Positions 9,581 to 63,897 of a stretch of DNA of 64,000 nucleotides are shown one piece after another (position 1 is the stretch's first letter; each line of letters begins with the position of its first letter). The stretch comes from a virus (taxonomy: Duplodnaviria; Heunggongvirae; Uroviricota; Caudoviricetes). The stretch is from IMG/VR virus record IMGVR_UViG_3300013902_000267, one strand, 5' to 3'. The position numbers and the translations under genes were made by a program. The notes under the pieces were generated by a model, which made no database searches, was not told the DNA's origin, and worked only from the letters and a program-made list of their open reading frames with translations.

Positions 9581-9601
9581 TTTTTTTATTTCAAAATAAT
9601 T

Positions 9602-9624
9602 ATGTATCTTTGTATTGTTAATAA
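9602..9624 (+). promoter_or_regulatory. Conserved promoter-like motif ATGTATCTTTGTATTGTTAATAA (copy 1 of 6)
   Basis: Same 23-mer family upstream of five minus-strand genes, always in the direction of transcription. Followed by a conserved AACAATTAAAAATAT element about 15 nt before the ATG. Confidence 0.55.
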
Positions 9625-9657
9625 ACAAAAAGTATAAACAATTAAAAATATATAATT

Positions 9658-10149
9658 ATGGCAACAAATAAAAAGAATACAGTTAAGAAGTATATGCTTT
9701 CCCAAAATTTACCTTTTGGTAATTTAAAAGCAGGCATGATTTTCTCTTATGATACTATTACAAAAACTGCGGTATTTCCAAATGGACAAGAGATCTCACC
9801 ATTTGATGTAACAGATAAGAATTTCGTTAAGTCTGTCGCAGATGTAAAGTTTAATGTAGGTGATTGTGTCATTTATCATACACGATTGTATAAGATTACT
9901 GATATTAACTATGTAACAGGTCGTTGTAAGCTTTTAGAGTTTTACGCAAATAAAGAGGTTGATTTTGTAAGTCATTCTGTATTGACAGCAGCACAAGTTT
10001 ATTGGTTTGTTAATTCGTCTGGAACTGTTTCATCATCATATATTGGCAAACAACCAGATGCAGACTTATGGAGAGCAAAAACAAAGAACATGTTTAATAC
10101 CAAGGAGGAGTGTCAGAAGTATAAGAATATTGTTCTTAAAAGTAAATAA
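9658..10149 (+). CDS. Hypothetical protein
   Basis: 163-aa ORF preceded by the conserved promoter motif and followed by a terminator. Confidence 0.5.
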   Translation: MATNKKNTVKKYMLSQNLPFGNLKAGMIFSYDTITKTAVFPNGQEISPFDVTDKNFVKSVADVKFNVGDCVIYHTRLYKITDINYVTGRCKLLEFYANKEVDFVSHSVLTAAQVYWFVNSSGTVSSSYIGKQPDADLWRAKTKNMFNTKEECQKYKNIVLKSK

Positions 10150-10198: not shown

Positions 10199-10240
10199 TA
10201 AAGAGATTTGTAGTGATTACAAGTCTCTTTTTTCTTTTTA
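10199..10240 (+). terminator. Rho-independent terminator (AAGAGATTTGTA / TACAAGTCTCTT, one mismatch, T-run)
   Basis: Hairpin read directly, followed by TTTTCTTTTT. Confidence 0.6.
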
Positions 10241-10269
10241 ATAAATATATAAAATATAAAAGAAGTATT

Positions 10270-10863
10270 ATGCCAACAATGATGCCATTAATGGATAAAG
10301 ATACCGTAAGATATATAACATAGAATATTACACCAGAAGAAACTAAATATGTAGCTGATATAAAATCTACTATTGATGATACAAAGTGTGAACCAGAGAA
10401 ATGTGATGATGTTATATATCTTACTAAGATTATCGCTTTTTATACTAAATTTACAAATCTTGCAAATACAACACCTAATAATCAATATAAGATGCATATT
10501 CAAGATTTTATGTGGAGATTACAGCAATATAAGGAAGATATATTTGAAGTTGTTCAATCTATCATAGGAGTTTTAAATGGTTCCGATATTACAAAGATTG
10601 AATTACCTATAAGTGATAATCCATTAGAGATTATAAATGAATTAAAACAATGTGTACAAAATTGGTTTACACTTCATACAGATGATATTGAATATGAAGG
10701 CGCTAGATCATTAACTAGTTCATTCCTTTCTGTAATTCATAAGTTTGTTTACCTTTTTAGATTAGATAAATGCTCGACTGCTGATTATGGTCAGGATTAG
10801 AAATTACCAAATCCTGATGCAGGATTATGTGGAGTAAACGGAGCATATGCAGTAAATTTTTAA
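10270..10863 (+). CDS. Hypothetical protein; TAG-recoded (2 in-frame TAG)
   Basis: Continuous frame from ATG 10270 to TAA 10861-10863. The ORF track shows only the fragment 10492..10800 because it treats TAG as a stop. Confidence 0.55.
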
Positions 10864-40698: not shown

Positions 40699-40721
40699 AT
40701 TTCTTATTTTTTATAATTGAA

Positions 40722-40743
40722 TTATTACATCACAAAGATACAC
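40722..40743 (-). promoter_or_regulatory. Conserved promoter-like motif (variant GTGTATCTTTGTGATGTAATAA), copy 5
   Basis: Same family as 9602..9624. 25 nt upstream of the ATG of 40435..40698. Confidence 0.45.
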
Positions 40744-40810
40744 ATATTTTTTAAAACAAAAAAATGATGATACTATATTTTTCAATATAATACCATCATT
40801 TAATATTTAA

Positions 40811-41974
40811 TTATTGTTCGTCAATATAACTATTTGAATCATCATTATCAATATTTTCAGATTGTTCATCTTCAATATTAGTTATACTCTTTAATATATT
40901 ATCTTTATATTTTTTATTTATACATTTATTTAATATATATGGTTCCATAGTTTCCGATCTACTAAACATAAATCCATTTGATTCATATAAATTTGAATTC
41001 TTTTTACATAAAGCAGATATTCTAGAAAATGCAACACCTGTTATCTTTTCCGCATCTTTTAATTTATTACATTTATATAACAATTTTCCGTTTAAATTAA
41101 ATACATTTACTCCTTTTTGTGTTAATAATATATCTTTATTTTTATAATTTACACAATAATTATATATTTCATTAGTCCATTTTCTAGTTAATGTAGGTAA
41201 CTAATATTTTATTATATAATTTTCATAATAATATTTAAAAATAGTTCTTGCTTTCTTAGATGATATAATATAATAACCAAAATTTTTTGTTTTATCTTCT
41301 ATAAAAATATTTGATGTTTTATCCTATAATATTTCTTCAAATCTTTGTTTTATATATAATAGTGTTTCATATGTTCCTACACAACTTATATATAAACGTT
41401 TACTTTTATGTCTATTTTCATTATATACTCCTATAGAACCATCTCCATCTATTACACCTATAATAAAGCAATCCTTATATATAGTTTCTAATATTGGTGG
41501 TATATATACATTCGTTTTCTATTTAGTAATATTAAAATTTTTATATAAATCATTCACTATCTACTCAGATAAAATATGAAAACTTACATTTTTAAATTTT
41601 TTATTATTTAAAATATTATAACCATAATATAATTTATATGTTGATGATATATTATATTTCAACTATTTTAAAAAATTCTCATCTTTTATTGATAATTTTA
41701 TATTCAAATTTTTATTTGTTTTATCTATAGAACCATCGGCAGCTATAAACCCTGCATAGTAAGAATTTATCGGATTTATTAATGAAAAATAATTATCATT
41801 AACATTATAAATACGTTCTCCTTTAATATTTTTCTTTAGTTGTAAATTATATACCTTTTTCCAATATGTTAAATTCTTACAAATTTTACCGGTAATTTCT
41901 TTTGATGCAACCTATTCTGAAATATTTTTATTATTTGCATAATCTATAATTTCCTATAATATATTTTTATCCAT
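40811..41974 (-). CDS. LAGLIDADG homing endonuclease (double-motif); TAG-recoded (7 TAG)
   Basis: 'YYAGFIAADGSI' and 'FIIGVIDGDGSIGV' LAGLIDADG motifs. 388-codon frame from ATG (rc 41972-41974) to TAA. Contains the track fragment 40811..41083. Confidence 0.7.
40860..40886. repeat. 27-nt repeat GATTGTTCATCTTCAATATTAGTTATA (copy A, 3' end of the LAGLIDADG gene)
   Basis: Identical to 42066..42092 at the 3' end of the Rnl2-like ligase gene. Encodes '...ITNIEDEQS' in both. Confidence 0.8.
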
Positions 41975-52773: not shown

Positions 52774-52796
52774 TTATTTACATTACAAAGATACAT
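52774..52796 (-). promoter_or_regulatory. Conserved promoter-like motif (ATGTATCTTTGTAATGTAAATAA), copy 6
   Basis: Same family as the other copies. Followed by TTAACAATTTAAATAT and then the ATG. Confidence 0.45.
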
Positions 52797-52834
52797 AATA
52801 TTTTCCTAAATAAAAAATATATTACCTAAAATTA

Positions 52835-54264: not shown

Positions 54265-55302
54265 TTATGCTTGATACGAATACTTGTCAAACAATGATTC
54301 AATATTAGAGGGATGCACAGCATTTATGCCGATTTCATTGCATTTTTTCAATGTATCATGGAAATCATCTATAAGACATACATCCTTAACATTCCACTTC
54401 ATTTTATGAGCAAACTGCTCAATAAAAACGTGCTTATAATTTTTATTTCCGACAAACATTCGGTTCTCAACAGGAATCTCTGGGAAATATTTATCAAGCC
54501 ATTCATTCTTCTCATTCCACGCTATTGAATTAGCACATGCAGTCACAATATAAACATTCTTCATGTCATAATGTTTCTTAACAAAATCAATGATATGTTT
54601 AACAGGCTTCAAATTTTTAAATAGTTCGCTACTTACAAAATCTGAATTTCCGTTAATATCAAGTTTTGCCTTGCCATAACAAGCTAATGTACCATCCATG
54701 TCAAGAAGTAAATACTTATTGGTAAAATAATCAACGCGAATGAATTCATCTACCAATGGGATGTACTTATTCTTACATGCTTCAATACGTAAATTTTTCT
54801 TATAAATATCTTCAATTGGAACTTTACGAGTTCTTCCTTGAAGTCTATTTATACAAACTTCTACAGGAGTATCAAAGAATATACAAGTAATCTTATCTAC
54901 ATTTTTATTTCTTAAATAATCTATAATACTAAGATTATAATGATTATTAATTCCACCGCCGTCAAGAATAACATTACAATTAATCTTTGAACTATCTGCA
55001 ATAGCAAAAATTATTTTTCGTGTTATTTGAACCGACTCTTCATGAACAACTTCCGGATGTTCATCAGTATAACCTTTTAACAATGGTTTAATTTCATCAG
55101 CAGAAATTACTATTGTTTCATTTATACAAAGATTATCTTCAATTGTCTGAATAATTTTATCTAAATTACATTCATCAAATGGTTTATCTAAAATAGATGT
55201 TAACCATTCAATGAGATGCAAAATATTTGGATAATTCTCTTGAAGATATGTACTTTTACCAGATGCAGGCAAACCGAGGAAGTACGAGAACTTACTGATC
55301 AT
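54265..55302 (-). CDS. pnk: Polynucleotide 5'-kinase/3'-phosphatase (T4 Pnk-like)
   Basis: N-terminal P-loop 'GLPASGKSTY'. C-terminal HAD phosphatase 'LLLDMDGTLA' resembles T4 'IFDVDGTLA'. 'CLIDDFHDTLKKCNEIGINAV' resembles T4 '[23 protein letters not shown]'. Confidence 0.7.
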   Translation of the reverse strand: MISKFSYFLGLPASGKSTYLQENYPNILHLIEWLTSILDKPFDECNLDKIIQTIEDNLCINETIVISADEIKPLLKGYTDEHPEVVHEESVQITRKIIFAIADSSKINCNVILDGGGINNHYNLSIIDYLRNKNVDKITCIFFDTPVEVCINRLQGRTRKVPIEDIYKKNLRIEACKNKYIPLVDEFIRVDYFTNKYLLLDMDGTLACYGKAKLDINGNSDFVSSELFKNLKPVKHIIDFVKKHYDMKNVYIVTACANSIAWNEKNEWLDKYFPEIPVENRMFVGNKNYKHVFIEQFAHKMKWNVKDVCLIDDFHDTLKKCNEIGINAVHPSNIESLFDKYSYQA

Positions 55303-55327
55303 AACTAAAATATAATTTAATTTTTAA

Positions 55328-56911
55328 TTAGTCAACAGTTCCATCAAGAAGTTTATGAACTGCATCTTGACGAGTCTTTCGGATTTCAGCAAGTGTAAAC
55401 TCTCTTACTAACTTACCATCTTCAAAAACAGTCTTCAATTCATTCTTATCTGATGCTTCCTCTTCAGGCGTTACACGATCAACTGGTACATACTTACCAT
55501 TACCATCTTTTACAACCATAAGAAGTCCACGATGTGATTTCTTTGGCATACCGCATACTGTTTTAGGATCCTTATAAATTTCTATAGGTTTGCCATTAAC
55601 TTTACACCATGTAGACTTACAGGCTATGCCTAAAGAATCTCTGGATCGTACATTATAAGTAAAGCTTCCTATACCTTCAATAAGGTTAGTTGCTGCGAAA
55701 CCCTTATCTTCAAGTTGAGAATATGTATCCTTTTGGCGTTTCATATTAATTGAGTCTCCATAAAGAAGTCCAATATGTGGATCAAGAATTTTATATCCTT
55801 TTTCATTAAATGTTCCACCGAACGTATTCCAAAGAAATTCATAAGAACCCATCTTTACAAATGGATCTTCTGCTTCCGGATCACCACAAATAATTTTAAC
55901 AGGATCACCACTATCAGGACGAATTACTACACGCCCATTACGAGACATAATTTGTTCTTTATACTTAGGAACAATCTTTGTCAAGAAATACCAATAATCA
56001 TAACCATCTGCAACAATTGAAATAATACCATCTGGAAATTCATCAAGCATATTCTTAAAATAAACTTCATCATTTGGCTTACCTGTTTCATCTGTTGCAT
56101 TAGAGCACTCAATAGAATGTTCAGTAGCTGGAACAGTTGCAGCTATCAATTCTTTTTTAGGATCTGCATTATAATAATACTCAATCATCTTAATTGCTGG
56201 AACTGTTTCAGAACCACAAAAAGAAGTAAGATGTGCCATACCAGAAACAATAGATGCTTCAAATGAACTCATTCCTCTCATAGAGAAATCATGACATAGA
56301 AATGCAAGATTAGACATATCGTTAGGATTATAAAAACCAGTTTTCATAGCATGTCTAACAAGTTCACGTTTAAATACATCAGCTGTTGTTGCAGAAGTAA
56401 TTGGAAGCCAAAGGACATTTGAAGTCAAAGACTCCAAATAATTTGTGAGCCAAGCAAAATCAGGATGTGTATTTGTGATTGTTAAAATAGGGCATCCGAT
56501 TGGACAATATGAACCTTCAGGAAGTGCCTTAATACGAATAGGAAGATAACCAAGTTTATGCAATGCAATAATATGATCAACCCCTACTTTCTTTGCAACT
56601 GCTTCTCCTAGAAATGTAGTTGTCAAATCTGTATAAGTTTTTCGTACAGTATCTTCATCAAGATTAAAGAAATAATTATTAAATGTATTAATAAGATACT
56701 TCTTAATAAAATACTGAATACCAAACACAACTGCTCCCTCTGTAGCTTCCGGAAAATATTTATTACTACGAGGAGTAAAGTTACTGAAAAGTTGCGTCAT
56801 TCCCTTAGGGTACATACAGTGATGACCAAGCTTGTAGCCATCTGTCATAAGCATTGCATTAAGAAGTATGTCTTCTACCAATACATGCTGTGAATCTTTT
56901 ACGTTTGTCAT
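55328..56911 (-). CDS. nadV: Nicotinamide phosphoribosyltransferase-family protein (NadV/NAMPT-like; a Namat-type enzyme cannot be excluded)
   Basis: 'MLMTDGYKLGHHCMYP' resembles the NAMPT N-terminal 'DSYKVTHYKQYP'. 527 aa. Confidence 0.65.
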   Translation of the reverse strand: MTNVKDSQHVLVEDILLNAMLMTDGYKLGHHCMYPKGMTQLFSNFTPRSNKYFPEATEGAVVFGIQYFIKKYLINTFNNYFFNLDEDTVRKTYTDLTTTFLGEAVAKKVGVDHIIALHKLGYLPIRIKALPEGSYCPIGCPILTITNTHPDFAWLTNYLESLTSNVLWLPITSATTADVFKRELVRHAMKTGFYNPNDMSNLAFLCHDFSMRGMSSFEASIVSGMAHLTSFCGSETVPAIKMIEYYYNADPKKELIAATVPATEHSIECSNATDETGKPNDEVYFKNMLDEFPDGIISIVADGYDYWYFLTKIVPKYKEQIMSRNGRVVIRPDSGDPVKIICGDPEAEDPFVKMGSYEFLWNTFGGTFNEKGYKILDPHIGLLYGDSINMKRQKDTYSQLEDKGFAATNLIEGIGSFTYNVRSRDSLGIACKSTWCKVNGKPIEIYKDPKTVCGMPKKSHRGLLMVVKDGNGKYVPVDRVTPEEEASDKNELKTVFEDGKLVREFTLAEIRKTRQDAVHKLLDGTVD

Positions 56912-57687: not shown

Positions 57688-57710
57688 TTATTAACAATAC
57701 AAAGATACAT
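57688..57710 (-). promoter_or_regulatory. Conserved promoter-like motif ATGTATCTTTGTATTGTTAATAA (copy 2)
   Basis: Identical to copy 1. Followed by AACAATTAAGTTGAACAATTAAAAATATAAAGAAT and then the ATG. Confidence 0.55.
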
Positions 57711-57888
57711 GTTTTATTTCAAATAAAAAAATATTAGAAGAAAAAATTAAATATTTTCTCTTAAAAATTTATCGATAAGTTTTTTAACACTATTACATTT
57801 ATATTGTGTTTCTACATAACTACCTGTCCAATCAGTATGAACATGAAAATTCTCAAGAAACCAGTTTGCAATCTTTTCTTTATCCATA

Positions 57889-59020: not shown

Positions 59021-59043
59021 TTATTAACAATACAAAGATACAT
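59021..59043 (-). promoter_or_regulatory. Conserved promoter-like motif ATGTATCTTTGTATTGTTAATAA (copy 3)
   Basis: Identical 23-mer, 11 nt upstream of the ATG at 59009. Confidence 0.5.
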
Positions 59044-59147
59044 ATTTTATTTTAAATAAAAAAGAGATATAACAAAATAATCTGTTATACCTCTTATAAA
59101 ATATATCTTAAAATAATAAAAAATTACATAATATATTGTAAAAGCAT

Positions 59148-60137
59148 CTATGTTTCCTCATCAGCTTTTAATTTTGGATATGCAGCTCTAAGTATCTGTA
59201 ATACACGTGTTTCTGTCATTCCATGTTCTTCTGCAACTTGCCATGTATTCTTTTCACCACGTCCATTAATACCATAGCAATCACATACAATTTCACCATC
59301 TCTTTCACCAAGAACTCTCTTTACATTATCTTCAAGTTCTCTTTCAAGATCAGCGTTATTAAGATTACTATCAGGGTCTTTAAATGTCCTATTAGCTGTT
59401 ACATCACCTAATGTTGTTTTAGAATCATCATCATCCCCGTATGATTTATCCAAACTATTTGCACGTGTATTTGCTTCCATTGTTTGTGCAAATGTTTCAT
59501 ATTTCAAATCTGGATGTTTCTTTACGAGAACATTATAAATATCATCAATATCAGGTTCATAACCATTCTTATTATATAATTGATCCTTGATACGAGCGGC
59601 TTCACGAGCAATACTACCCATATTACGGGGAACTGCCATATGTCCACCTACCTCATCAACAGCAGTCATAATTTCTCTACGAATATACCAAATAGCATAA
59701 GAAACAAAACGTACATCTTTACCTGGCAAACTTGGATCATATGTATCTGCTGCTTGCATAAGTCCTATATTTCCATATTGAATCATATCTTCCTTTGGTA
59801 TATTAATATTTTTATACTTATTGACAACAGAAATAACAAATGGAAGATTTGCGGACACCAACTTATTCTTTGCCTTTTCAATTTCTCTCTTATTATCAGA
59901 ATGTTGAATAATATCAGCAAGTTTCACTTCATCTGCATGTGATAATTGTTTTTTCTTATTAATAGCATGTAAATATGCAATAGTAGACTTTGCTGTATTT
60001 TCATCCTGTGTAATAGCAAAATCATCATGCAAATCCATATGCATTCCATTATTAGCTTCATTGAGTTTCTTTCTAATAGTCTTAGAAACATTTCTCATGA
60101 TACTTTCATACAATGTCTTCTTTTCATTTAACTTCAT
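59148..60137 (-). CDS. Sigma-70 family RNA polymerase sigma factor
   Basis: Region 2 'GNIGLMQAADTYDPS...RFVSYAIWYIRREI'. Region 4 'TWQVAEEHGMTETRVLQILRAAYPKLK'. 329 aa. Confidence 0.7.
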   Translation of the reverse strand: MKLNEKKTLYESIMRNVSKTIRKKLNEANNGMHMDLHDDFAITQDENTAKSTIAYLHAINKKKQLSHADEVKLADIIQHSDNKREIEKAKNKLVSANLPFVISVVNKYKNINIPKEDMIQYGNIGLMQAADTYDPSLPGKDVRFVSYAIWYIRREIMTAVDEVGGHMAVPRNMGSIAREAARIKDQLYNKNGYEPDIDDIYNVLVKKHPDLKYETFAQTMEANTRANSLDKSYGDDDDSKTTLGDVTANRTFKDPDSNLNNADLERELEDNVKRVLGERDGEIVCDCYGINGRGEKNTWQVAEEHGMTETRVLQILRAAYPKLKADEET

Positions 60138-60186
60138 ATCTTGATAAAAATTATTTCAATATTTTAAATATTTATCTTAAAATAAA

Positions 60187-60219
60187 AATAGAGAATAGTT
60201 ATCGCAACTACTCTCTATT
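60187..60219 (-). terminator. Terminator hairpin (AATAGAGA ... TCTCTATT) with a U-run on the minus strand
   Basis: 8-bp outer stem plus inner AGTT/AACT pairing. Confidence 0.45.
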
Positions 60220-60231
60220 TATAATTATCTA

Positions 60232-60789
60232 TTATTCTATATTTAATATTTGTTTAATCTTTACTATGTCATCCTGTGTTATACCTGAATAACTATCTAT
60301 TTTTATAAAGTTATCCTGTTGATATGTCATCATATCATCATCGTCATCTACTATACAATAATCTATTCTTAATTCATCATCTTTAAATTTAAAATAATCT
60401 TCATCATAAAATTGTTTATAGTTTCGCACATTTGTATTTCCGCTATACATAAGGAAATAATGAATTTCATTTCCTCTTATTGAGTGTTCATCATGATATT
60501 TTGGTGTTATACCTACTATATATTTAATTAAACATTTCAAATCTTTATACTTATCAAACGCATATTTTGTTGCTTCTAATGAAATCTCTCTCCATGACGA
60601 TGATATAACTAATCTTACATTATAATTCTCACATAATTGTTCTATAAGTTTTACTGCATTTTTGTCTACAAAATGATCACCATTTTCTTCATTTATATAT
60701 TTCTTTCCTTCCTTTGTAAAACACCAATTCGCATATTGTTCAGAATTCAAAACACCGTCTATGTCTAAAAATAATATTTTTATATTCAT
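60232..60789 (-). CDS. HAD-superfamily phosphatase
   Basis: 'ILFLDIDGVLN' HAD motif I. 185 aa. Confidence 0.55.
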   Translation of the reverse strand: MNIKILFLDIDGVLNSEQYANWCFTKEGKKYINEENGDHFVDKNAVKLIEQLCENYNVRLVISSSWREISLEATKYAFDKYKDLKCLIKYIVGITPKYHDEHSIRGNEIHYFLMYSGNTNVRNYKQFYDEDYFKFKDDELRIDYCIVDDDDDMMTYQQDNFIKIDSYSGITQDDIVKIKQILNIE

Positions 60790-60792
60790 TTA

Positions 60793-61116
60793 TTAATCTT
60801 CATCAAAATTATCATATATTGAAATCTTATTCTTCCTACGTTCTTTCTTAGGTTCTATACAAGGAAAACAATACTCTCCTACATGCTTTATATATCTTTC
60901 ATTCGTATATGTTGGTTCACCTTTAAAATTAAAATTCCGTTGTTCACCATATGCAATATGTTTCTTTTTCTTCCATTTAACAACTTTATCTTTCTGTACT
61001 TCTATATCTTGTAAATCCTTATGTTTATTCTTTACTTTAAATTTTTTATCACATTCTACTACAAAACTAGATGAACCCTTATTTACTTTATGTGTTTGAT
61101 GATAACTTCTTGACAT
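60793..61116 (-). CDS. Hypothetical basic protein
   Basis: 107-aa ORF. Confidence 0.35.
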   Translation of the reverse strand: MSRSYHQTHKVNKGSSSFVVECDKKFKVKNKHKDLQDIEVQKDKVVKWKKKKHIAYGEQRNFNFKGEPTYTNERYIKHVGEYCFPCIEPKKERRKNKISIYDNFDED

Positions 61117-61132
61117 AATATAAATTTTTTAT

Positions 61133-61444
61133 TTATAATCTTTCTATATTTATAACTTTATCTGCTAATAATGGTTTTAATGTTTTATTAAACGTGTTTT
61201 CACTTATAGAAATTTTTTTATATCTTAATTTATATTCTCGTGTATTACTTTCAAAAGGATTATTTACTTCATATTTTAATTCAGAAGCAAAATATATTGT
61301 ATAATATATATTTGGTCTAACAGAATCATATGTTCTACTTATATTCTTTTCTATATATACAATGGATTTAATAGGTAAAATTATATTACTACATTTTATA
61401 TATTCTATATTATTTCCTTTACTATGATTTTTAAATTTTATCAT
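61133..61444 (-). CDS. Hypothetical protein
   Basis: 103-aa ORF. Confidence 0.35.
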   Translation of the reverse strand: MIKFKNHSKGNNIEYIKCSNIILPIKSIVYIEKNISRTYDSVRPNIYYTIYFASELKYEVNNPFESNTREYKLRYKKISISENTFNKTLKPLLADKVINIERL

Positions 61445-61448
61445 TTTA

Positions 61449-61853
61449 CTAAATATATCTTAAATCATCTGCATAATCGCACATATCTAAAAATTCATTT
61501 TGAAGTTCACTATCTATAATAGTAAATGCTCTGACTTCATCATATGATTTCTTGTCTGGAATAACATCACACCAATCTGCATCCACATCATATACTTTAT
61601 GCGTCGCTGTAGACATAACACGAATCATTGTTTTTTCTTTATATTCTTGTGTATATCCTAACGGTCCATATTCGTTAACTAATACTGTTTTCTTAAATGG
61701 CTTCATAATACATACAAGTCTTGTATTCATTTCATCTTTCTCACATGAATACATTCCTGGTATAAGCAATACTCTTTTACCTGTTGTTACATTTATATTA
61801 TATTCACAGTTACTTCTGAGAAATATCAAATCACCAATATTAAAGCACATCAT
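61449..61853 (-). CDS. Hypothetical protein
   Basis: 134-aa ORF preceded by promoter-motif copy 4. Confidence 0.4.
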   Translation of the reverse strand: MMCFNIGDLIFLRSNCEYNINVTTGKRVLLIPGMYSCEKDEMNTRLVCIMKPFKKTVLVNEYGPLGYTQEYKEKTMIRVMSTATHKVYDVDADWCDVIPDKKSYDEVRAFTIIDSELQNEFLDMCDYADDLRYI

Positions 61854-61888: not shown

Positions 61889-61911
61889 TTATTAACAATA
61901 CAAAGATACAC
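61889..61911 (-). promoter_or_regulatory. Conserved promoter-like motif (GTGTATCTTTGTATTGTTAATAA), copy 4
   Basis: Followed by AATAAGAATATAAACAATTAAAAATATAAAGAATT and then the ATG. Confidence 0.55.
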
Positions 61912-62091
61912 ATTATTTTTGATATAAAAAAGAAAACATAAAGAAATATCAATTTTTATAGTAAAAACAATTAAAATTCTATAGAAATCTTATTAAATTT
62001 TATAATATTTTTTAAACAAGTATAGATAAGAAAAGTCTACCATGACTTACATCATAATAGACTTATAGTACATCTTTAAAAATAATATCTG

Positions 62092-62187
62092 TGGATATAG
62101 ATGGACTCGAACCACCATGTATCTGCCCTAGAATTATGATACAAACTAACATCATATTAGTCGCGTTTACCATTTCGCCATATATCC
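62092..62187 (-). tRNA. Type II (long-variable-arm) tRNA, about 96 nt. The anticodon loop TATGATG gives TGA (Ser) if canonical, but position 33 is atypical
   Basis: Acceptor GGATATA/TATATCC. T-arm GGTGG-TTCGAGT-CCATC. Anticodon stem ACTAA/TTAGT. Unusually long variable arm (stem TGTATC/GATACA with a 14-nt loop). Confidence 0.45.
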
Positions 62188-62193
62188 ATATAG

Positions 62194-62266
62194 CAGGCCT
62201 GATGAGATTCGAACTCACAACAACATGATTAAAATTCGTGTGCTCTACCAATTGAGCTACAGGCCC
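62194..62266 (-). tRNA. tRNA-Lys (anticodon TTT)
   Basis: 5' GGGCCTGTAGCTCAATTGGTAGAGCA... T-arm GTGAG-TTCGAAT-CTCAT. Anticodon loop ATTTTAA. 73 nt. One C-A mismatch in the anticodon stem. Confidence 0.65.
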
Positions 62267-62374
62267 AAAGTTCTATTTTAAATTTCCACGCAATAGAACT
62301 CCGAAGATTTGTAGATCTGTGTTCATGGTACTTAATCTAATGCTTGTTTTTAATACTGACGTGTTAACCTCTTC

Positions 62375-62470
62375 ACCAAATCCCCGATTAAATAATATGT
62401 AATAGAGGGGATTCATGGGTTCGAACCATGGATAATCAGTAAAATCATGATATATCACGAATGACACCAT
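62375..62470 (-). ncRNA. tRNA-like fragment: T-arm (CATGG-TTCGAAC-CCATG) plus acceptor 3' strand, with its complement GGGGATT placed downstream. Degenerate, permuted or unusual tRNA
   Basis: The minus strand reads ...CATGGTTCGAACCCATGAATCCCC-(21 nt)-GGGGATT... I could not fold a canonical cloverleaf. Confidence 0.25.
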
Positions 62471-62682
62471 GACAATCTACGTTAACTGTAATACTAAAGC
62501 TCTTGACTCAATGCTAACGCTAAAATCTAGGATTCTGTTTATGCTAAATGTAATCAAGCTAATGCTTTAGTCAATTTACATATGTTATATATGATATTAT
62601 ATTCAAAGTCTATTATTCATATCAAAAATATTTTTAAGAAATAAATATCATAAATGAATCGATAACATTTATTATATAATAT

Positions 62683-63897
62683 ATGAATAAGAATTATAAC
62701 AAACTATATGAAGAAATGATGTCAGATATTTCAGTTATCGTTAAAAAGAAAATAAATGAAGCATATGACAATCAGCTTCTCGAAGAATATGGTGCAAAGG
62801 ATATGTTTAATGATATTATGAAAGAAGCATCAAAAGAAGGTAAAATCTTTTATAAGCATCTTAAATAGTTTATAATTTATATCATCAAAAAATTACAAGA
62901 GACAGATCAATATAAAAAAGCTGAAAAACTTATGAATGCGTATGTTCAGAAAGTACAGAAATATATTGATGAACATAAGAAGATTACTCCGAGACGTATG
63001 TTGAAAATTACTGTTGCTGTATTGACAATGTATGGAGGTGTTTCAATGATACAAGATTGTAAATAGATGATTAAATCTTTATAGGGTAATGTTGAAACTT
63101 ATGAATAGAAAGTAGAAAATGTACCGGATGAAAAGCAACAAGAAGTAATAGTAGAAGAACCTGAAGATTTTGTTGTTGAAGTTAAAGATGAAGCAAAAGA
63201 AAAATTAAGTGTCAAGAAAGTATCTACTGAAGATATTAATAATACACCTGAAAAGAAATTTAAGGAAGACAAGAATTTCAATTTTAAGTCAAGCAACGAG
63301 GCTCGCGAATTTATTAAACATCATGAGTTATGCTTACTTTACCCTTATTACGCAAAACCCGAAGAGGAAGCAAAAGGAATGGTAACTATTGGTTATGGTC
63401 ATGTTGTATTGGAATCAGATGGTGAATTATACAAGAAAGTATAGCAATTAAAAAAGAAAGGCTTAATTAAACAATCATTTGTTACAAAAAATGGTAAAAC
63501 TATTTTAAACCCTAATCATTGTAAAACCATTATAACAAAGACTGACGCAGATAAATTATTTTAGAAAGATATTAAGATTGCTGAATAGCGTGCATATAGA
63601 ACTATACAAAATATGCCTACTGATGATGATAATGTTAAATATTATATGTTATATAATCAAAAAATAAGAGATGGTTTAACATCATTATGTTATAATGCTG
63701 GATAGCTTAAACATGAAAAATATACATTCATAACAAAAGGTCTTGCAAAATCTAGATATGATTATCAAGCATAGAAAATAAATGCAGGTGATTATAATGT
63801 ATCCTTTAAATATTTCAAGAATATTAAAGATAATCCTAACAGAAGAAATGAGGAATATAAGTTATTCTTTATGAACGCAAATAAGTCTATGTCATAA
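62683..63897 (+). CDS. T4-type lysozyme (GH24) endolysin with a long N-terminal extension containing a TM segment (membrane-anchored or SAR-like); TAG-recoded (about 12 TAG). Alternative starts at 62932 and 63067
   Basis: Single frame. '...HHELCLLYPYY...GMVTIGYGH' matches the T4L catalytic Glu and 'TIGIGH' regions. 'LAKSRYDYQAQ' resembles 'LAKSRWYNQ'. 'PNRRNEEYKLF' resembles 'PNRAKRVITTF'. TM 'ITVAVLTMYGGVSMI' about 110 aa upstream of the catalytic domain. Confidence 0.65.

What the first reader, a model, noticed from the sequence alone, without database searches (positions are those of the whole stretch)
9602..9624. 23-nt promoter-like motif (A/G)TGTATCTTTGT(A/G)(A/T)TGT(A/T)AATAA present six times, plus a phage sigma factor
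Copies lie at 9602 (+), 40722 (-), 52774 (-), 57688 (-), 59021 (-) and 61889 (-). Each is in the direction of transcription, 11-35 nt upstream of a start codon. Four copies are followed by a second conserved element AACAATT(A/T)AAAATAT. Every instance precedes a standard-code gene. The phage encodes its own sigma-70-family factor (59148-60137). The motif contains TTTG, which is reminiscent of Bacteroidota promoter elements. It could define an early or middle regulon distinct from the TAG-containing late genes.
Basis: seen in the sequence. Interest (0 to 1): 0.6.

Follow-up and report, generated by a model that had tools for sequence, protein, structure and literature searches.

The report
Host-type early promoters of Lak megaphage
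The repeated 23-base motif is the core of about 57 near-identical promoters in a 550-kb Prevotella megaphage; they copy the host's own promoter consensus and sit only in front of genes and tRNA arrays that can be read in the standard genetic code, an expected kind of phage early promoter that had not been mapped for this phage in the papers I could search.

Summary
In detail: five exact copies and one copy with a 1-nt deletion, against none expected by chance.

- **Source.** The window is Prevotella phage Lak-B7 (MK250026.1, bases 139512-203511).
- **Full family.** The six copies belong to 57 sites genome-wide. All share TTTTT, a 17-nt A/T spacer, then GTATCTTTG.
- **What the motif is.** It matches the Bacteroidota sigma-A promoter: a -7 box TAnnTTTG, a T-rich -33 element 19 nt upstream, and a purine at the predicted start site.
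- **Seen elsewhere.** The same extended motif lies at gene 5' ends in Bacteroidota genomes, including Prevotella, and in unrelated viral contigs.
- **What it drives.** 53 sites precede an ORF 19-53 nt downstream. None has an internal TAG codon. The other four have no ORF; three of them precede tRNA genes.
- **Conservation.** Lak-A1 keeps 52 such sites, 39 of them before orthologous genes.
- **Late class.** A second motif, ATAAATA (like the T4 late promoter), precedes about 118 genes. 76% of these contain TAG, and they include the tail sheath and the large terminase.
- **The window's sigma gene.** It has its own ATAAATA promoter behind a terminator. A gp55-like late sigma lies outside the window.

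Most likely these are early promoters read by the host RNA polymerase, comparable to the PeSL cassettes of T4-like phages. This is a new member of a known kind. No transcript data were available.

The parts
9582..9617 (+). Promoter module 1. T-run (-33 element) 9582-9586, -7 box TATCTTTG 9605-9612, predicted start site G at 9617.
9637..9646 (+). Leader element AACAATTAAA, 21 nt before the ATG of gene 9658-10149.
9658..10149 (+). First and only gene of this unit: 163 aa, no TAG codon, no Pfam match.
10200..10230 (+). Intrinsic terminator (14-bp stem plus T-run) that closes the one-gene unit.
10241..10247 (+). ATAAATA late-type promoter motif, 22 nt before a TAG-containing ORF that starts at 10270.
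40728..40763 (-). Promoter module 2, the variant copy. T-run 40763-40759, -7 box 40740-40733, start site 40728. A 16-bp hairpin (window 40796-40765, converted from the fold) ends directly at the T-run. Drives gene 40698-40435 (87 aa, no TAG).
52781..52816 (-). Promoter module 3. -7 box 52793-52786, start site 52781, leader element 52759-52750. First ORF 52738-52601 (45 aa, no TAG).
57695..57730 (-). Promoter module 4. -7 box 57707-57700, start site 57695, leader element 57674-57665. Drives gene 57652-57107 (181 aa, no TAG).
59028..59063 (-). Promoter module 5. -7 box 59040-59033, start site 59028, 19-nt leader. Drives gene 59009-58620 (129 aa, no TAG).
59062..59095 (-). Intrinsic terminator after the sigma gene (15-bp stem). 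Its T-tail is the -33 T-run of promoter module 5, so terminator and promoter form one composite cassette.
59148..60137 (-). RpoD-like sigma-70-family factor: 329 aa, no internal TAG, stop codon TAG. Its N-terminal 27 aa are shared with nine other Lak proteins.
60169..60175 (-). ATAAATA motif 31 nt before the sigma ATG (36-38 nt if counted from the start of the motif, as). This is the sigma gene's own late-type promoter.
60186..60220 (-). Intrinsic terminator (16-bp stem) that separates the motif-driven operon from the sigma gene.
61896..61931 (-). Promoter module 6. -7 box 61908-61901, start site 61896, leader element 61876-61867.
60232..61853 (-). Four-gene unit behind module 6: 61853-61449 (stop codon TAG), 61444-61133, 61116-60793 and 60789-60232 (HAD_SAK_2 domain). 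None has an internal TAG.

Best explanation
**What it is.** The motif is the core of a class of about 57 strong promoters in Prevotella megaphage Lak-B7. They reproduce the promoter consensus of the host phylum's primary sigma factor (sigma-A of Bacteroidota).

**Anatomy.**
- A T-run at -35 to -31, which is the -33 element.
- A 17-nt A/T spacer.
- G at -13, then the -7 box TAtcTTTG at -12 to -5.
- A purine start site 5 nt after the G of TTTG.

**Inferred mechanism.** On infection the unmodified host RNA polymerase holoenzyme binds these sites. It transcribes short units of 1-11 genes, mostly small proteins without recognisable domains, plus the large tRNA arrays. All of these can be translated in the host's standard code.

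**Other features.**
- In about 40% of sites the T-run is also the U-tract of a stem-loop terminator for the unit upstream. This gives composite terminator-promoter cassettes.
- A sub-family of at least 16 sites, four of them in the window, also shares a 5' leader, AACAATTAAAAATATAAAgaATT-ATG, fixed relative to the start codon. It is probably a translation-initiation leader.

**The late class.** TAG-containing genes, including tail sheath and terminase, carry a different motif. It is T4-like: ATAAATA 20-39 nt before the ATG, with no upstream element. It is presumably read through the phage's gp55-like late sigma.

**Shown versus inferred.** Sequence architecture, position, orientation, code partition, conservation and occurrence in host genomes are shown. 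Which sigma reads the sites, the start-site position and the early timing are inferred.
For: **Identity of the window.** It is 100% identical to Lak-B7, MK250026.1.

**A sharply defined class.**
- GTATCTTTG occurs 56 times genome-wide, and 55 copies share the T-run in an exact register.
- A weight-matrix scan gives 57 sites at 20 bits or more, against 0 in a Markov control, with almost no intermediate scores.

**Match to the host consensus.**
- The spacing TTTN-19 nt-TAnnTTTG equals the published -33/-7 consensus (PMC7366714).
- With the box placed at -12 to -5 (PMC9723704), the start site falls on a purine in 53 of 55 sites.

**Position.** 53 of 57 sites are followed by an ATG-initiated ORF 19-53 nt after the core. 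Three of the other four precede tRNA genes.

**Code partition.**
- First genes carry 0.21 TAG per 1000 codons, against 8.4 genome-wide. The only two TAGs lie at ORF ends, where they act as stops.
- None of 49 genes behind the motif has an internal TAG, against 76% of 118 genes behind ATAAATA (p = 1e-22).
- Lak-A1 repeats this (p = 7e-18).

**Conservation.** Lak-A1 has 52 such sites. 39 of 51 Lak-B7 first genes have orthologs (median 65% protein identity) that are also first genes behind the motif. The flanks have diverged to about 40-55% identity.

**Host-type, not Lak-specific.**
- The pattern TTTTT-N16-TGTATCTTTGTA occurs in 74 non-Lak viral loci. 31 of 53 distinct sites lie directly before an ORF, and 7 have the ATG exactly at the predicted +1, i.e. 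leaderless.
- In bacterial genomes, 60 of 120 hits are Bacteroidota, six of them Prevotella or Prevotellaceae. These lie mostly outside ORFs: 38 of 60, against 12 of 60 in other phyla. Promoter-like placement is 18 versus 3 (p = 5e-4).
- In those host loci, other -7 boxes also prefer nn = TC and a preceding G (p = 0.03 and 0.004).

**No phage polymerase.** Lak belongs to the T4-like jumbo group that lacks its own RNA polymerase (PMC7824862).

**Terminator overlap.** 22 of 55 sites have a strong hairpin ending 0-4 nt before the T-run.
Against: - There are no transcript 5' ends or expression timing for this uncultured phage. Promoter activity, start site and the word 'early' are all inferred.
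- The -33 element is TTTT/TTTC rather than the textbook TTTG.
- The core is far more invariant (9 of 9 bases in 55 sites) than host promoters usually are. That could also fit a dedicated factor with narrow specificity.
- The phage encodes an RpoD-like sigma whose specificity is unknown.
- The host loci used for comparison were selected for holding one copy of the motif, which may bias the preference estimates.
- About 7% of genes in motif-led runs (13 of 185) do contain TAG, so units may run into recoded genes, or my operon calls are imperfect.
Confidence: 0.78

Rival explanations
1. The motif is read by the phage's own RpoD-like sigma factor (window 59148-60137), not by host sigma-A. It would then define a middle class, or a phage-autonomous class, that only resembles host promoters because the two sigma factors are related.
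For: - The sigma factor is conserved in all Lak relatives found, at 74-98% identity.
- It has regions 1.2 to 4.
- The motif core is unusually invariant.
- The sigma shares an N-terminal peptide with nine other proteins, so it might be specially targeted.
Against: - The same extended motif sits at gene starts in Bacteroidota chromosomes and in unrelated viral contigs.
- The sigma gene is insulated from the motif-driven operon by a 16-bp terminator and carries an ATAAATA-type promoter, the class associated with late genes.
- The residues that contact -12 and -35 in E. coli sigma-70 are not conserved: Q437R, T440M, R584E, E585T, R588L. This alignment is from my memory of the sigma-70 sequence.
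- Region 4 scores below the Pfam threshold.
- No close bacterial relative exists from which a host-like specificity could be inherited.
Confidence: 0.12
2. The repeats are mainly recombination substrates, as proposed for PeSL cassettes. They would be conserved because they mediate modular shuffling of small genes, with promoter activity secondary.
For: - The terminator-plus-promoter architecture and the association with small proteins lacking recognisable domains match the PeSL description (PMC2839356).
- 4 of 6 Lak-B7 leaders are closer to a Lak-B7 paralog than to their Lak-A1 ortholog, which hints at gene conversion.
Against: - The one indel examined between Lak-B7 and Lak-B8 (947 bp at window ~55323-55334) is not flanked by the motif.
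- 39 promoters stay before the same orthologous genes in Lak-A1.
- The exact register between T-run, box and purine, and the fixed distance to start codons, are transcription constraints that recombination would not require.
- This reading is compatible with the promoter reading rather than an alternative to it.
Confidence: 0.05
3. The 23-mer and the downstream AACAAT element form an RNA hairpin or a protein operator that controls translation or mRNA stability, rather than a promoter.
For: ATTGTT in the 23-mer is complementary to AACAAT in the second element. The second element is fixed relative to the ATG.
Against: - There is no covariation. The copy at 52774 has AATGTA but keeps AACAATT, and the copy at 59021 lacks the second element.
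- The spacing between the two arms varies by 19 nt.
- The predicted start site lies inside the left arm, so that arm would be truncated in the RNA.
- Most of the 57 sites lack the second element altogether.
Confidence: 0.03

Closest known systems
Bacteroidota sigma-A (sigma-ABfr) promoters: -33 TTTG / -7 TAnnTTTG (Bayley et al. 2000, as cited in PMC7366714; box at -12 to -5 in PMC9723704)
   Same: - A -7 box TAnnTTTG, with the upstream element 19 nt away.
- A purine at the expected start site.
- Placement before genes.
- The exact extended form occurs in Bacteroidota and Prevotella genomes.
   Different: - The phage version is frozen at one sequence (G-TA-TC-TTTG in 55 of 55 sites).
- The -33 element is TTTT or TTTC embedded in TTTTTtATTT, not TTTG.
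- The spacer is almost pure A/T.
PeSL cassettes (promoter-early stem-loop) of T4-like phages (PMC2839356, PMC4122927)
   Same: - Many near-identical copies of a promoter equal to the host consensus.
- An AT-rich upstream region and an adjacent stem-loop terminator.
- Preferential placement before small genes of unknown function.
- Occurrence in a phage of the T4-like jumbo group (PMC7824862).
   Different: - The host consensus here is the Bacteroidota type, not sigma-70 TTGACA/TATAAT.
- The stem-loops are AT-rich, lack polyG/polyC, and are present at only about 40% of sites.
- Recombination at the cassettes was not seen in the one indel examined.
Phage T4 early / late promoter system (host sigma-70 early promoters; late TATAAATA read by gp55, gp33 and the clamp)
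   Same: - Two promoter classes. One is host-like with an upstream element. The other is a lone ATAAATA box about 20-39 nt before the start codons of structural genes.
- A gp55 homolog is present (phrog_234 at 4e-11).
- The literature reports no phage RNA polymerase and a gp33 ortholog for the jumbo group in which it places Lak.
   Different: - In Lak the two classes coincide with two genetic codes, TAG-free versus TAG = Gln.
- The gp55-like gene itself contains three conserved TAG codons.
- There is an additional full-length RpoD-like sigma of unknown role.
- I looked for neither a middle-promoter class nor MotA/AsiA homologs.
Stop-codon recoding as a timing device in phages (Devoto 2019, PMC6784885; Borges et al. 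2022, recalled from memory and not read here)
   Same: TAG-free regions versus TAG-rich structural regions in Lak. The phage carries a suppressor tRNA(CUA) and, per the paper, release factor 2.
   Different: Those studies defined the classes by codon use alone. Here an independent DNA signal, the promoter type, separates the same two gene sets. No promoter is mentioned in the Lak papers I could search.

Membership tests
Bacteroidota sigma-A-type promoter | A -7 box TAnnTTTG | tested here: met
   TATCTTTG is present in all six window copies and in 55 exact sites genome-wide. Two further sites of at least 20 bits carry one-mismatch cores.
Bacteroidota sigma-A-type promoter | A -33 element TTTG, 19-21 nt upstream of the -7 box | tested here: inconclusive
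   TTT is invariant exactly 19 nt upstream in 55 of 55 sites. The fourth base is T (47) or C (8), never G. [quoted passage not shown]
Bacteroidota sigma-A-type promoter | Transcription starts about 5 nt after the G of TTTG (box at -12 to -5) | not testable with these tools
   No RNA data were available. Indirect support: a purine at that position in 53 of 55 sites, and 7 non-Lak viral sites with the ATG exactly there.
Bacteroidota sigma-A-type promoter | Lies upstream of, and co-oriented with, genes in non-coding DNA | tested here: met
   53 of 57 sites lie before an ORF at 19-53 nt, and 3 lie before tRNA genes. Only 1 of 56 core copies lies inside a gene.
Bacteroidota sigma-A-type promoter | The same sequence is used by the host phylum's own genes | tested here: met
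   60 of 120 genome hits are Bacteroidota, including Prevotella, and 38 of those 60 lie outside ORFs. Other host boxes prefer G-TA-TC-TTTG.
Bacteroidota sigma-A-type promoter | Bound and used by host RNA polymerase carrying sigma-A | not testable with these tools
   This needs in vitro transcription or reporter assays.
PeSL-type early promoter / terminator cassette of T4-like phages | Repeated promoter identical to the host consensus, with an AT-rich upstream region | tested here: met
   definition in PMC2839356
PeSL-type early promoter / terminator cassette of T4-like phages | An adjacent stable stem-loop acting as a terminator | tested here: inconclusive
   22 of 55 sites have a hairpin of -5 kcal/mol or stronger ending 0-4 nt before the T-run; 33 do not. 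In the window, two of the six sites have one: 40721, and 59021, the latter also found by the terminator scan.
PeSL-type early promoter / terminator cassette of T4-like phages | Recombination between cassettes produces indels of the flanked genes | tested here: not met
   The single Lak-B7/Lak-B8 indel examined (947 bp) is not bounded by the motif. With one case only, this is weak evidence.
Phage-sigma-dependent promoter (as for SPO1 gp28 or T4 gp55) | A consensus distinct from the host's primary promoter | tested here: not met
   The motif equals the host consensus. The distinct consensus in this genome is ATAAATA.
T4-type late promoter (for the second motif ATAAATA) | A TATAAATA-like box with no -35 element, before structural genes, in a phage that has a gp55 homolog | tested here: met
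   - 119 copies lie 20-39 nt before an ATG, against 5 for the reverse complement.
- There is no conserved upstream position.
- Tail sheath and large terminase belong to this class.
- A gp55-like protein matches phrog_234 at 4e-11.

The most novel reading that the evidence does not exclude
The motif marks the standard-code half of a two-key temporal switch. The host polymerase reads the 57 host-type promoters and makes TAG-free early proteins and the tRNA arrays. The late programme is locked twice. First, it uses a different promoter, ATAAATA. Second, the gp55-like late sigma needed to read that promoter has three in-frame TAG codons (codons 20, 33 and 46, conserved in Lak-A1). Late transcription therefore cannot begin until the phage has switched the cell's genetic code. 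Recoding would then gate transcription as well as translation of late genes.
Probability: 0.4. Interest if true: 0.75.

Novelty: new member of a known kind. Interest (0 to 1): 0.45.

Why it matters
Lak megaphages are uncultured. Their infection programme is known only from codon-use maps. A promoter map changes three things.

- **Independent early and late classes.** It gives a sequence-based definition of early and late gene sets: about 57 host-type promoters, about 120 T4-like late promoters, and the terminators between them.
- **Support for the recoding hypothesis.** These classes coincide almost perfectly with TAG-free and TAG-containing genes. This supports the idea that stop-codon recoding times the lytic programme. 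It also makes the idea testable on existing metatranscriptomes, by looking for 5' ends at the predicted positions.
- **Practical use.** The promoters are compact, consensus-perfect Bacteroidota promoters with matched leaders. They could serve as expression parts for Prevotella and Bacteroides genetics.

The principle itself, that phage early promoters copy the host consensus, is textbook, so the surprise is modest.

Tried and rejected
- **RNA hairpin or operator.** Pairing between ATTGTT and AACAAT was rejected. There is no covariation, the spacing varies, and the predicted start site lies inside the left arm.
- **Classical sigma-70 promoters.** TTGACA/TATAAT matches are not enriched: 51 found against 52.9 expected, and 6 against 10.2.
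- **Sigma gene in the motif-driven operon.** My first assumption was that the sigma gene is the fifth gene of the operon behind 61889. A 16-bp terminator and a separate ATAAATA box lie between them, so I rejected it.
- **RpoD-like sigma as reader of ATAAATA.** I weakened this idea after finding a gp55-like late sigma elsewhere in the genome.
- **Specificity of the window's sigma from homologs.** The best 120 relatives are all Lak-type, so nothing could be inferred.
- **Rfam.** A scan of three 50-kb stretches holding the ORF-less promoter sites returned only tRNAs.
- **Pfam.** Scans of the six proteins that share the sigma's N-terminal peptide gave no match.
- **PeSL-style recombination.** The Lak-B7/Lak-B8 indel is not bounded by the motif.
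- **Suppressor tRNA.** No promoter of either class lies directly upstream of tRNA(CUA), so what drives it stays unresolved.
- **Literature.**
  - No paper held mentions Lak promoters.
  - One search was wasted on 'crAss' word matches.
  - A search for the literal core sequence gave only unrelated titles, which I did not open.
  - Borges et al. 2022 is not held.
- **A scripting error.** In one search the selected sites were not excluded. I corrected this, and only one search is used.

Full report
**1. The observation**

The degenerate 23-mer has five exact matches in the window: 9602+, 52774-, 57688-, 59021- and 61889-. A sixth copy at 40721-40743(-) differs by a single-base deletion. Dinucleotide-preserving shuffles give 0.00-0.01 matches.

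An alignment of the six loci shows that conservation extends upstream to a T-run, TTTTTTTATTT. In four copies it also extends downstream to AACAATTAAAAATAT. Each copy points at a start codon 11-35 nt beyond the 23-mer.

**2. Where the window comes from**

The window is 100% identical to Prevotella phage Lak-B7, MK250026.1. This is a 550,702-bp megaphage assembled from baboon faeces. Window base 1 is genome base 139512. The record carries no annotation.

I fetched the whole genome. I also fetched the whole of Lak-A1, from human faeces, which is about 81% identical in conserved stretches.

**3. The full family**

The core GTATCTTTG occurs 56 times in Lak-B7. Of these, 55 share one architecture. 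Counting from the G of the core as position 0:
- TTT is invariant at -22 to -20, within a T-run that spans -22 to -18.
- The spacer is A/T-rich.
- T is invariant at -1.
- After the core comes TAtT, then a purine at +13 in 53 of 55 sites.

A weight matrix finds 57 sites at 20 bits or more, against none in a Markov-simulated genome. Only two further hits score between 14 and 20 bits, so the class is sharply bounded.

**4. What the motif is**

TAtcTTTG is the -7 box TAnnTTTG of the primary sigma factor of Bacteroidota. The T-run lies exactly 19 nt upstream, where that consensus places its -33 element TTTG (PMC7366714).

In Flavobacterium psychrophilum the box occupies -12 to -5 (PMC9723704). On that numbering the start site falls on the conserved purine. 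In the window these are positions 9617, 40728, 52781, 57695, 59028 and 61896. Predicted leaders in the window are 19-43 nt long.

**5. Position and the genetic code**

Of the 57 sites, 53 are followed by an ATG-initiated ORF 19-53 nt after the core. Three of the other four precede tRNA genes, including the 19-gene array at 126-134 kb.

None of the 53 first genes has an internal TAG. The only two TAGs lie at ORF ends, where they act as stop codons. That is 0.21 TAG per 1000 codons, against 8.4 genome-wide.

In my own gene set the split is as follows:

| Upstream signal | Genes | With internal TAG |
|---|---|---|
| Host-type motif | 49 | 0 (0%) |
| ATAAATA 15-45 nt before the ATG | 118 | 90 (76%) |
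| Neither | 431 | 127 (29%) |

The Fisher test for the first two rows gives 1e-22. Runs of co-oriented genes led by the motif hold 185 genes, of which 13 contain TAG. Lak-A1 gives the same picture: 1 of 43 genes against 87 of 117, p = 7e-18.

**6. Conservation**

Lak-A1 has 57 core copies, 52 of them with the T-run in register. Of 51 Lak-B7 first genes, 39 have a distinct Lak-A1 ortholog that is also the first gene behind the motif. Median protein identity is 65% and the minimum is 33%. Sequence beyond the promoter has diverged to about 40-55% identity.

**7. Host-type or phage-specific?**

I scanned two public collections for TTTTT-N16-TGTATCTTTGTA.

In IMG/VR, 74 of the 116 loci returned are unrelated to Lak and have G+C from 0.21 to 0.49. 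Of 53 distinct sites, 31 lie directly before an ORF. Seven have the ATG exactly 5 nt after the G of TTTG. These would be leaderless mRNAs beginning at the predicted start site.

In one-genome-per-species bacterial contigs, 60 of 120 loci are Bacteroidota. They include Prevotella, Prevotellaceae, Bacteroides, Parabacteroides and Flavobacteriaceae.
- 38 of these 60 matches lie outside ORFs, against 12 of 60 in other phyla.
- Promoter-like placement is 18 against 3 (p = 5e-4).

Within those Bacteroidota loci I examined 78 other upstream -7 boxes, with the selected sites excluded.
- TC is the commonest middle dinucleotide: 19%, against 10% in coding DNA (p = 0.03).
- G is the commonest preceding base: 40%, against 23% (p = 0.004).

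The Lak motif is therefore the modal host promoter, fixed at its consensus.

Lak is also placed in the T4-like jumbo group, which lacks its own RNA polymerase (PMC7824862).

**8. Terminators and the leader**

In 22 of 55 sites a strong hairpin ends 0-4 nt before the T-run. Many are 10-16 bp long, with energies of -9 to -16 kcal/mol. In these sites the T-run doubles as the terminator's U-tract.

The terminator scan finds these in the window:
- 59095-59062(-), abutting promoter 59021.
- 60220-60186(-).
- 62064-62033(-).
- 10200-10230(+).

The element AACAATTWAAA lies 20-23 nt before the ATG, apart from two outliers at 17 and 35, while its distance to the promoter varies from 9 to 28 nt. It belongs to the translation leader, not the promoter.

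**9. The late class and the sigma factors**

A k-mer comparison of upstream regions lacking the motif brought out ATAAATA.
- It lies 20-39 nt before the ATG in 119 cases in Lak-B7 and 117 in Lak-A1. The reverse complement gives 5 and 8.
- It has no conserved upstream partner.
- It precedes the tail sheath and the large terminase.
- It resembles the T4 late promoter TATAAATA (my knowledge).

A homolog of the T4 late sigma gp55 lies at Lak-B7 404231-404617. phmmer against T4 gp55 gives 9e-5, and phrog_234 'late sigma transcription factor' gives 4e-11. It has in-frame TAG at codons 20, 33 and 46, conserved in Lak-A1.

The window's sigma (59148-60137) is a separate, full-length RpoD/RpoS-like protein. 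All of its best 120 relatives are Lak-type. Its gene lies behind the terminator at 60220-60186 and has its own ATAAATA box at 60175-60169. It is therefore not part of the operon driven by the motif at 61889, and its role is open.

**10. Comparison with what is known**

The closest described system is the PeSL cassette of T4-like phages. PeSLs are repeated early promoters identical to the host consensus, with an AT-rich upstream region and an adjacent stem-loop terminator, placed before small genes of unknown function (PMC2839356, PMC4122927).

The Lak modules match this in logic but use the Bacteroidota consensus. Recombination at the cassettes was not seen in the one Lak-B7/Lak-B8 indel examined.

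The Lak papers I could search do not mention promoters.

**11. Verdict**

The motif is real and is very probably a promoter. It is most likely read by the host RNA polymerase early in infection. This is an expected kind of element, newly mapped in this phage, so I rate it a new member of a known kind with moderate interest.

The added value has two parts. One is the near-perfect coincidence of two promoter classes with two genetic codes. The other is the TAG-containing late sigma.

All functional statements rest on sequence evidence only.

Noticed in passing
window 10241-10247(+), 60169-60175(-), 62641-62647(+), 42001-41995(-) and 14 more; about 120 genome-wide: A second promoter-like motif, ATAAATA, lies 20-39 nt before start codons and has no upstream partner. 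It is strand-specific (119 copies against 5 for the reverse complement). 76% of the genes behind it contain in-frame TAG, and they include tail sheath and large terminase. It resembles the T4 late promoter TATAAATA.
   Followed up: yes
Lak-B7 genome 404231-404617(+) = L009:4231-4617 (outside the window); Lak-A1 234458-234075: A gp55-like late sigma factor (phrog_234 at 4e-11) carries three in-frame TAG codons at codons 20, 33 and 46, conserved in Lak-A1. It has its own ATAAATA promoter. Late transcription may therefore depend on the switch of genetic code.
   Followed up: partly
window 60137-60057(-) (sigma N-terminus) and 62683-62760(+); eight further genes in Lak-B7, starting at 41507+, 42770-, 102023-, 231915-, 235640-, 316873-, 317598- and 532936+: Ten otherwise unrelated proteins, including the RpoD-like sigma, share an N-terminal peptide of about 27 aa, KKxLYESIMxxVSKxVKKKLNE.
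- The Ser after LYE is encoded by TCN in some copies and AGT in others, so selection acts on the protein.
- All ten genes have ATAAATA 27-42 nt upstream.
- There is no Pfam match.
- The ending LNE recalls the (L/I)xE prohead-protease sites of T4 capsid-targeting sequences. That link is speculative and rests on memory.
   Followed up: partly
window 59148-59150(-) and 61449-61451(-): The sigma gene and the first gene behind promoter 61889 both end in TAG, used as a true stop. Database gene calls for the sigma are 337-338 aa, which would fit read-through to the next TAA 8 codons later.
   Followed up: partly
Lak-B7 125972(+), 126095(+) and 482043(-) = L003:25972, L003:26095 and L010:32043: Three motif sites with no ORF share a conserved downstream sequence, GTTCTTTGAAATTTTGATA. 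Two precede the large tRNA array. Nothing was recognised after the third by ARAGORN or by Rfam at gathering threshold. Its transcript is unexplained.
   Followed up: partly
Lak-B7 414053-414125(+) and 345556-345628(+) (outside the window): The suppressor tRNA(CUA) lies directly after a 253-aa ORF containing 8 TAG codons, and no promoter of either class sits immediately upstream. A second suppressor-like tRNA, with anticodon UUA, lies about 600 nt downstream of the host-type promoter at 344934.
   Followed up: no
leaders after the promoters at window 9613-9657 and 57699-57653, and their paralogs genome-wide: In 4 of 6 orthologous pairs, the 5' leader in Lak-B7 is more similar to another Lak-B7 leader (0.90-0.91) than to its Lak-A1 ortholog (0.77-0.80). 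Lak-A1 has three identical copies, and a fourth differing at one base, of TATTGTTAATGAAATAATAAACAATTAAAAAATAAAGATT. This hints at gene conversion between promoter-leader cassettes.
   Followed up: partly
window ~55323-55334, intergenic between ORFs 54265-55302(-) and 55328-56911(-): Lak-B8 and at least seven other Lak-B genomes carry about 945 bp more than Lak-B7 across window 40000-64000. In Lak-B8 this is a 947-bp insertion at this point. My standard-code scan found no minus-strand ORF longer than 60 aa in it. It is not flanked by the promoter motif.
   Followed up: partly
window 62080-62470(-): tRNA-like sequences lie just upstream of promoter 61889 on the minus strand. ARAGORN calls one tRNA-Lys(UUU) at window 62193-62266. 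The neighbouring tRNA-like stretches were not resolved.
   Followed up: no
IMG/VR loci L026, L029, L040, L041 and about 20 more (G+C 0.44-0.49): A family of unrelated viral contigs with higher G+C carries the same promoter core 18 nt before a conserved gene of about 300 aa (MATLSGQKVK...). Other contigs place the ATG exactly at the predicted start site, which would give leaderless mRNAs.
   Followed up: partly
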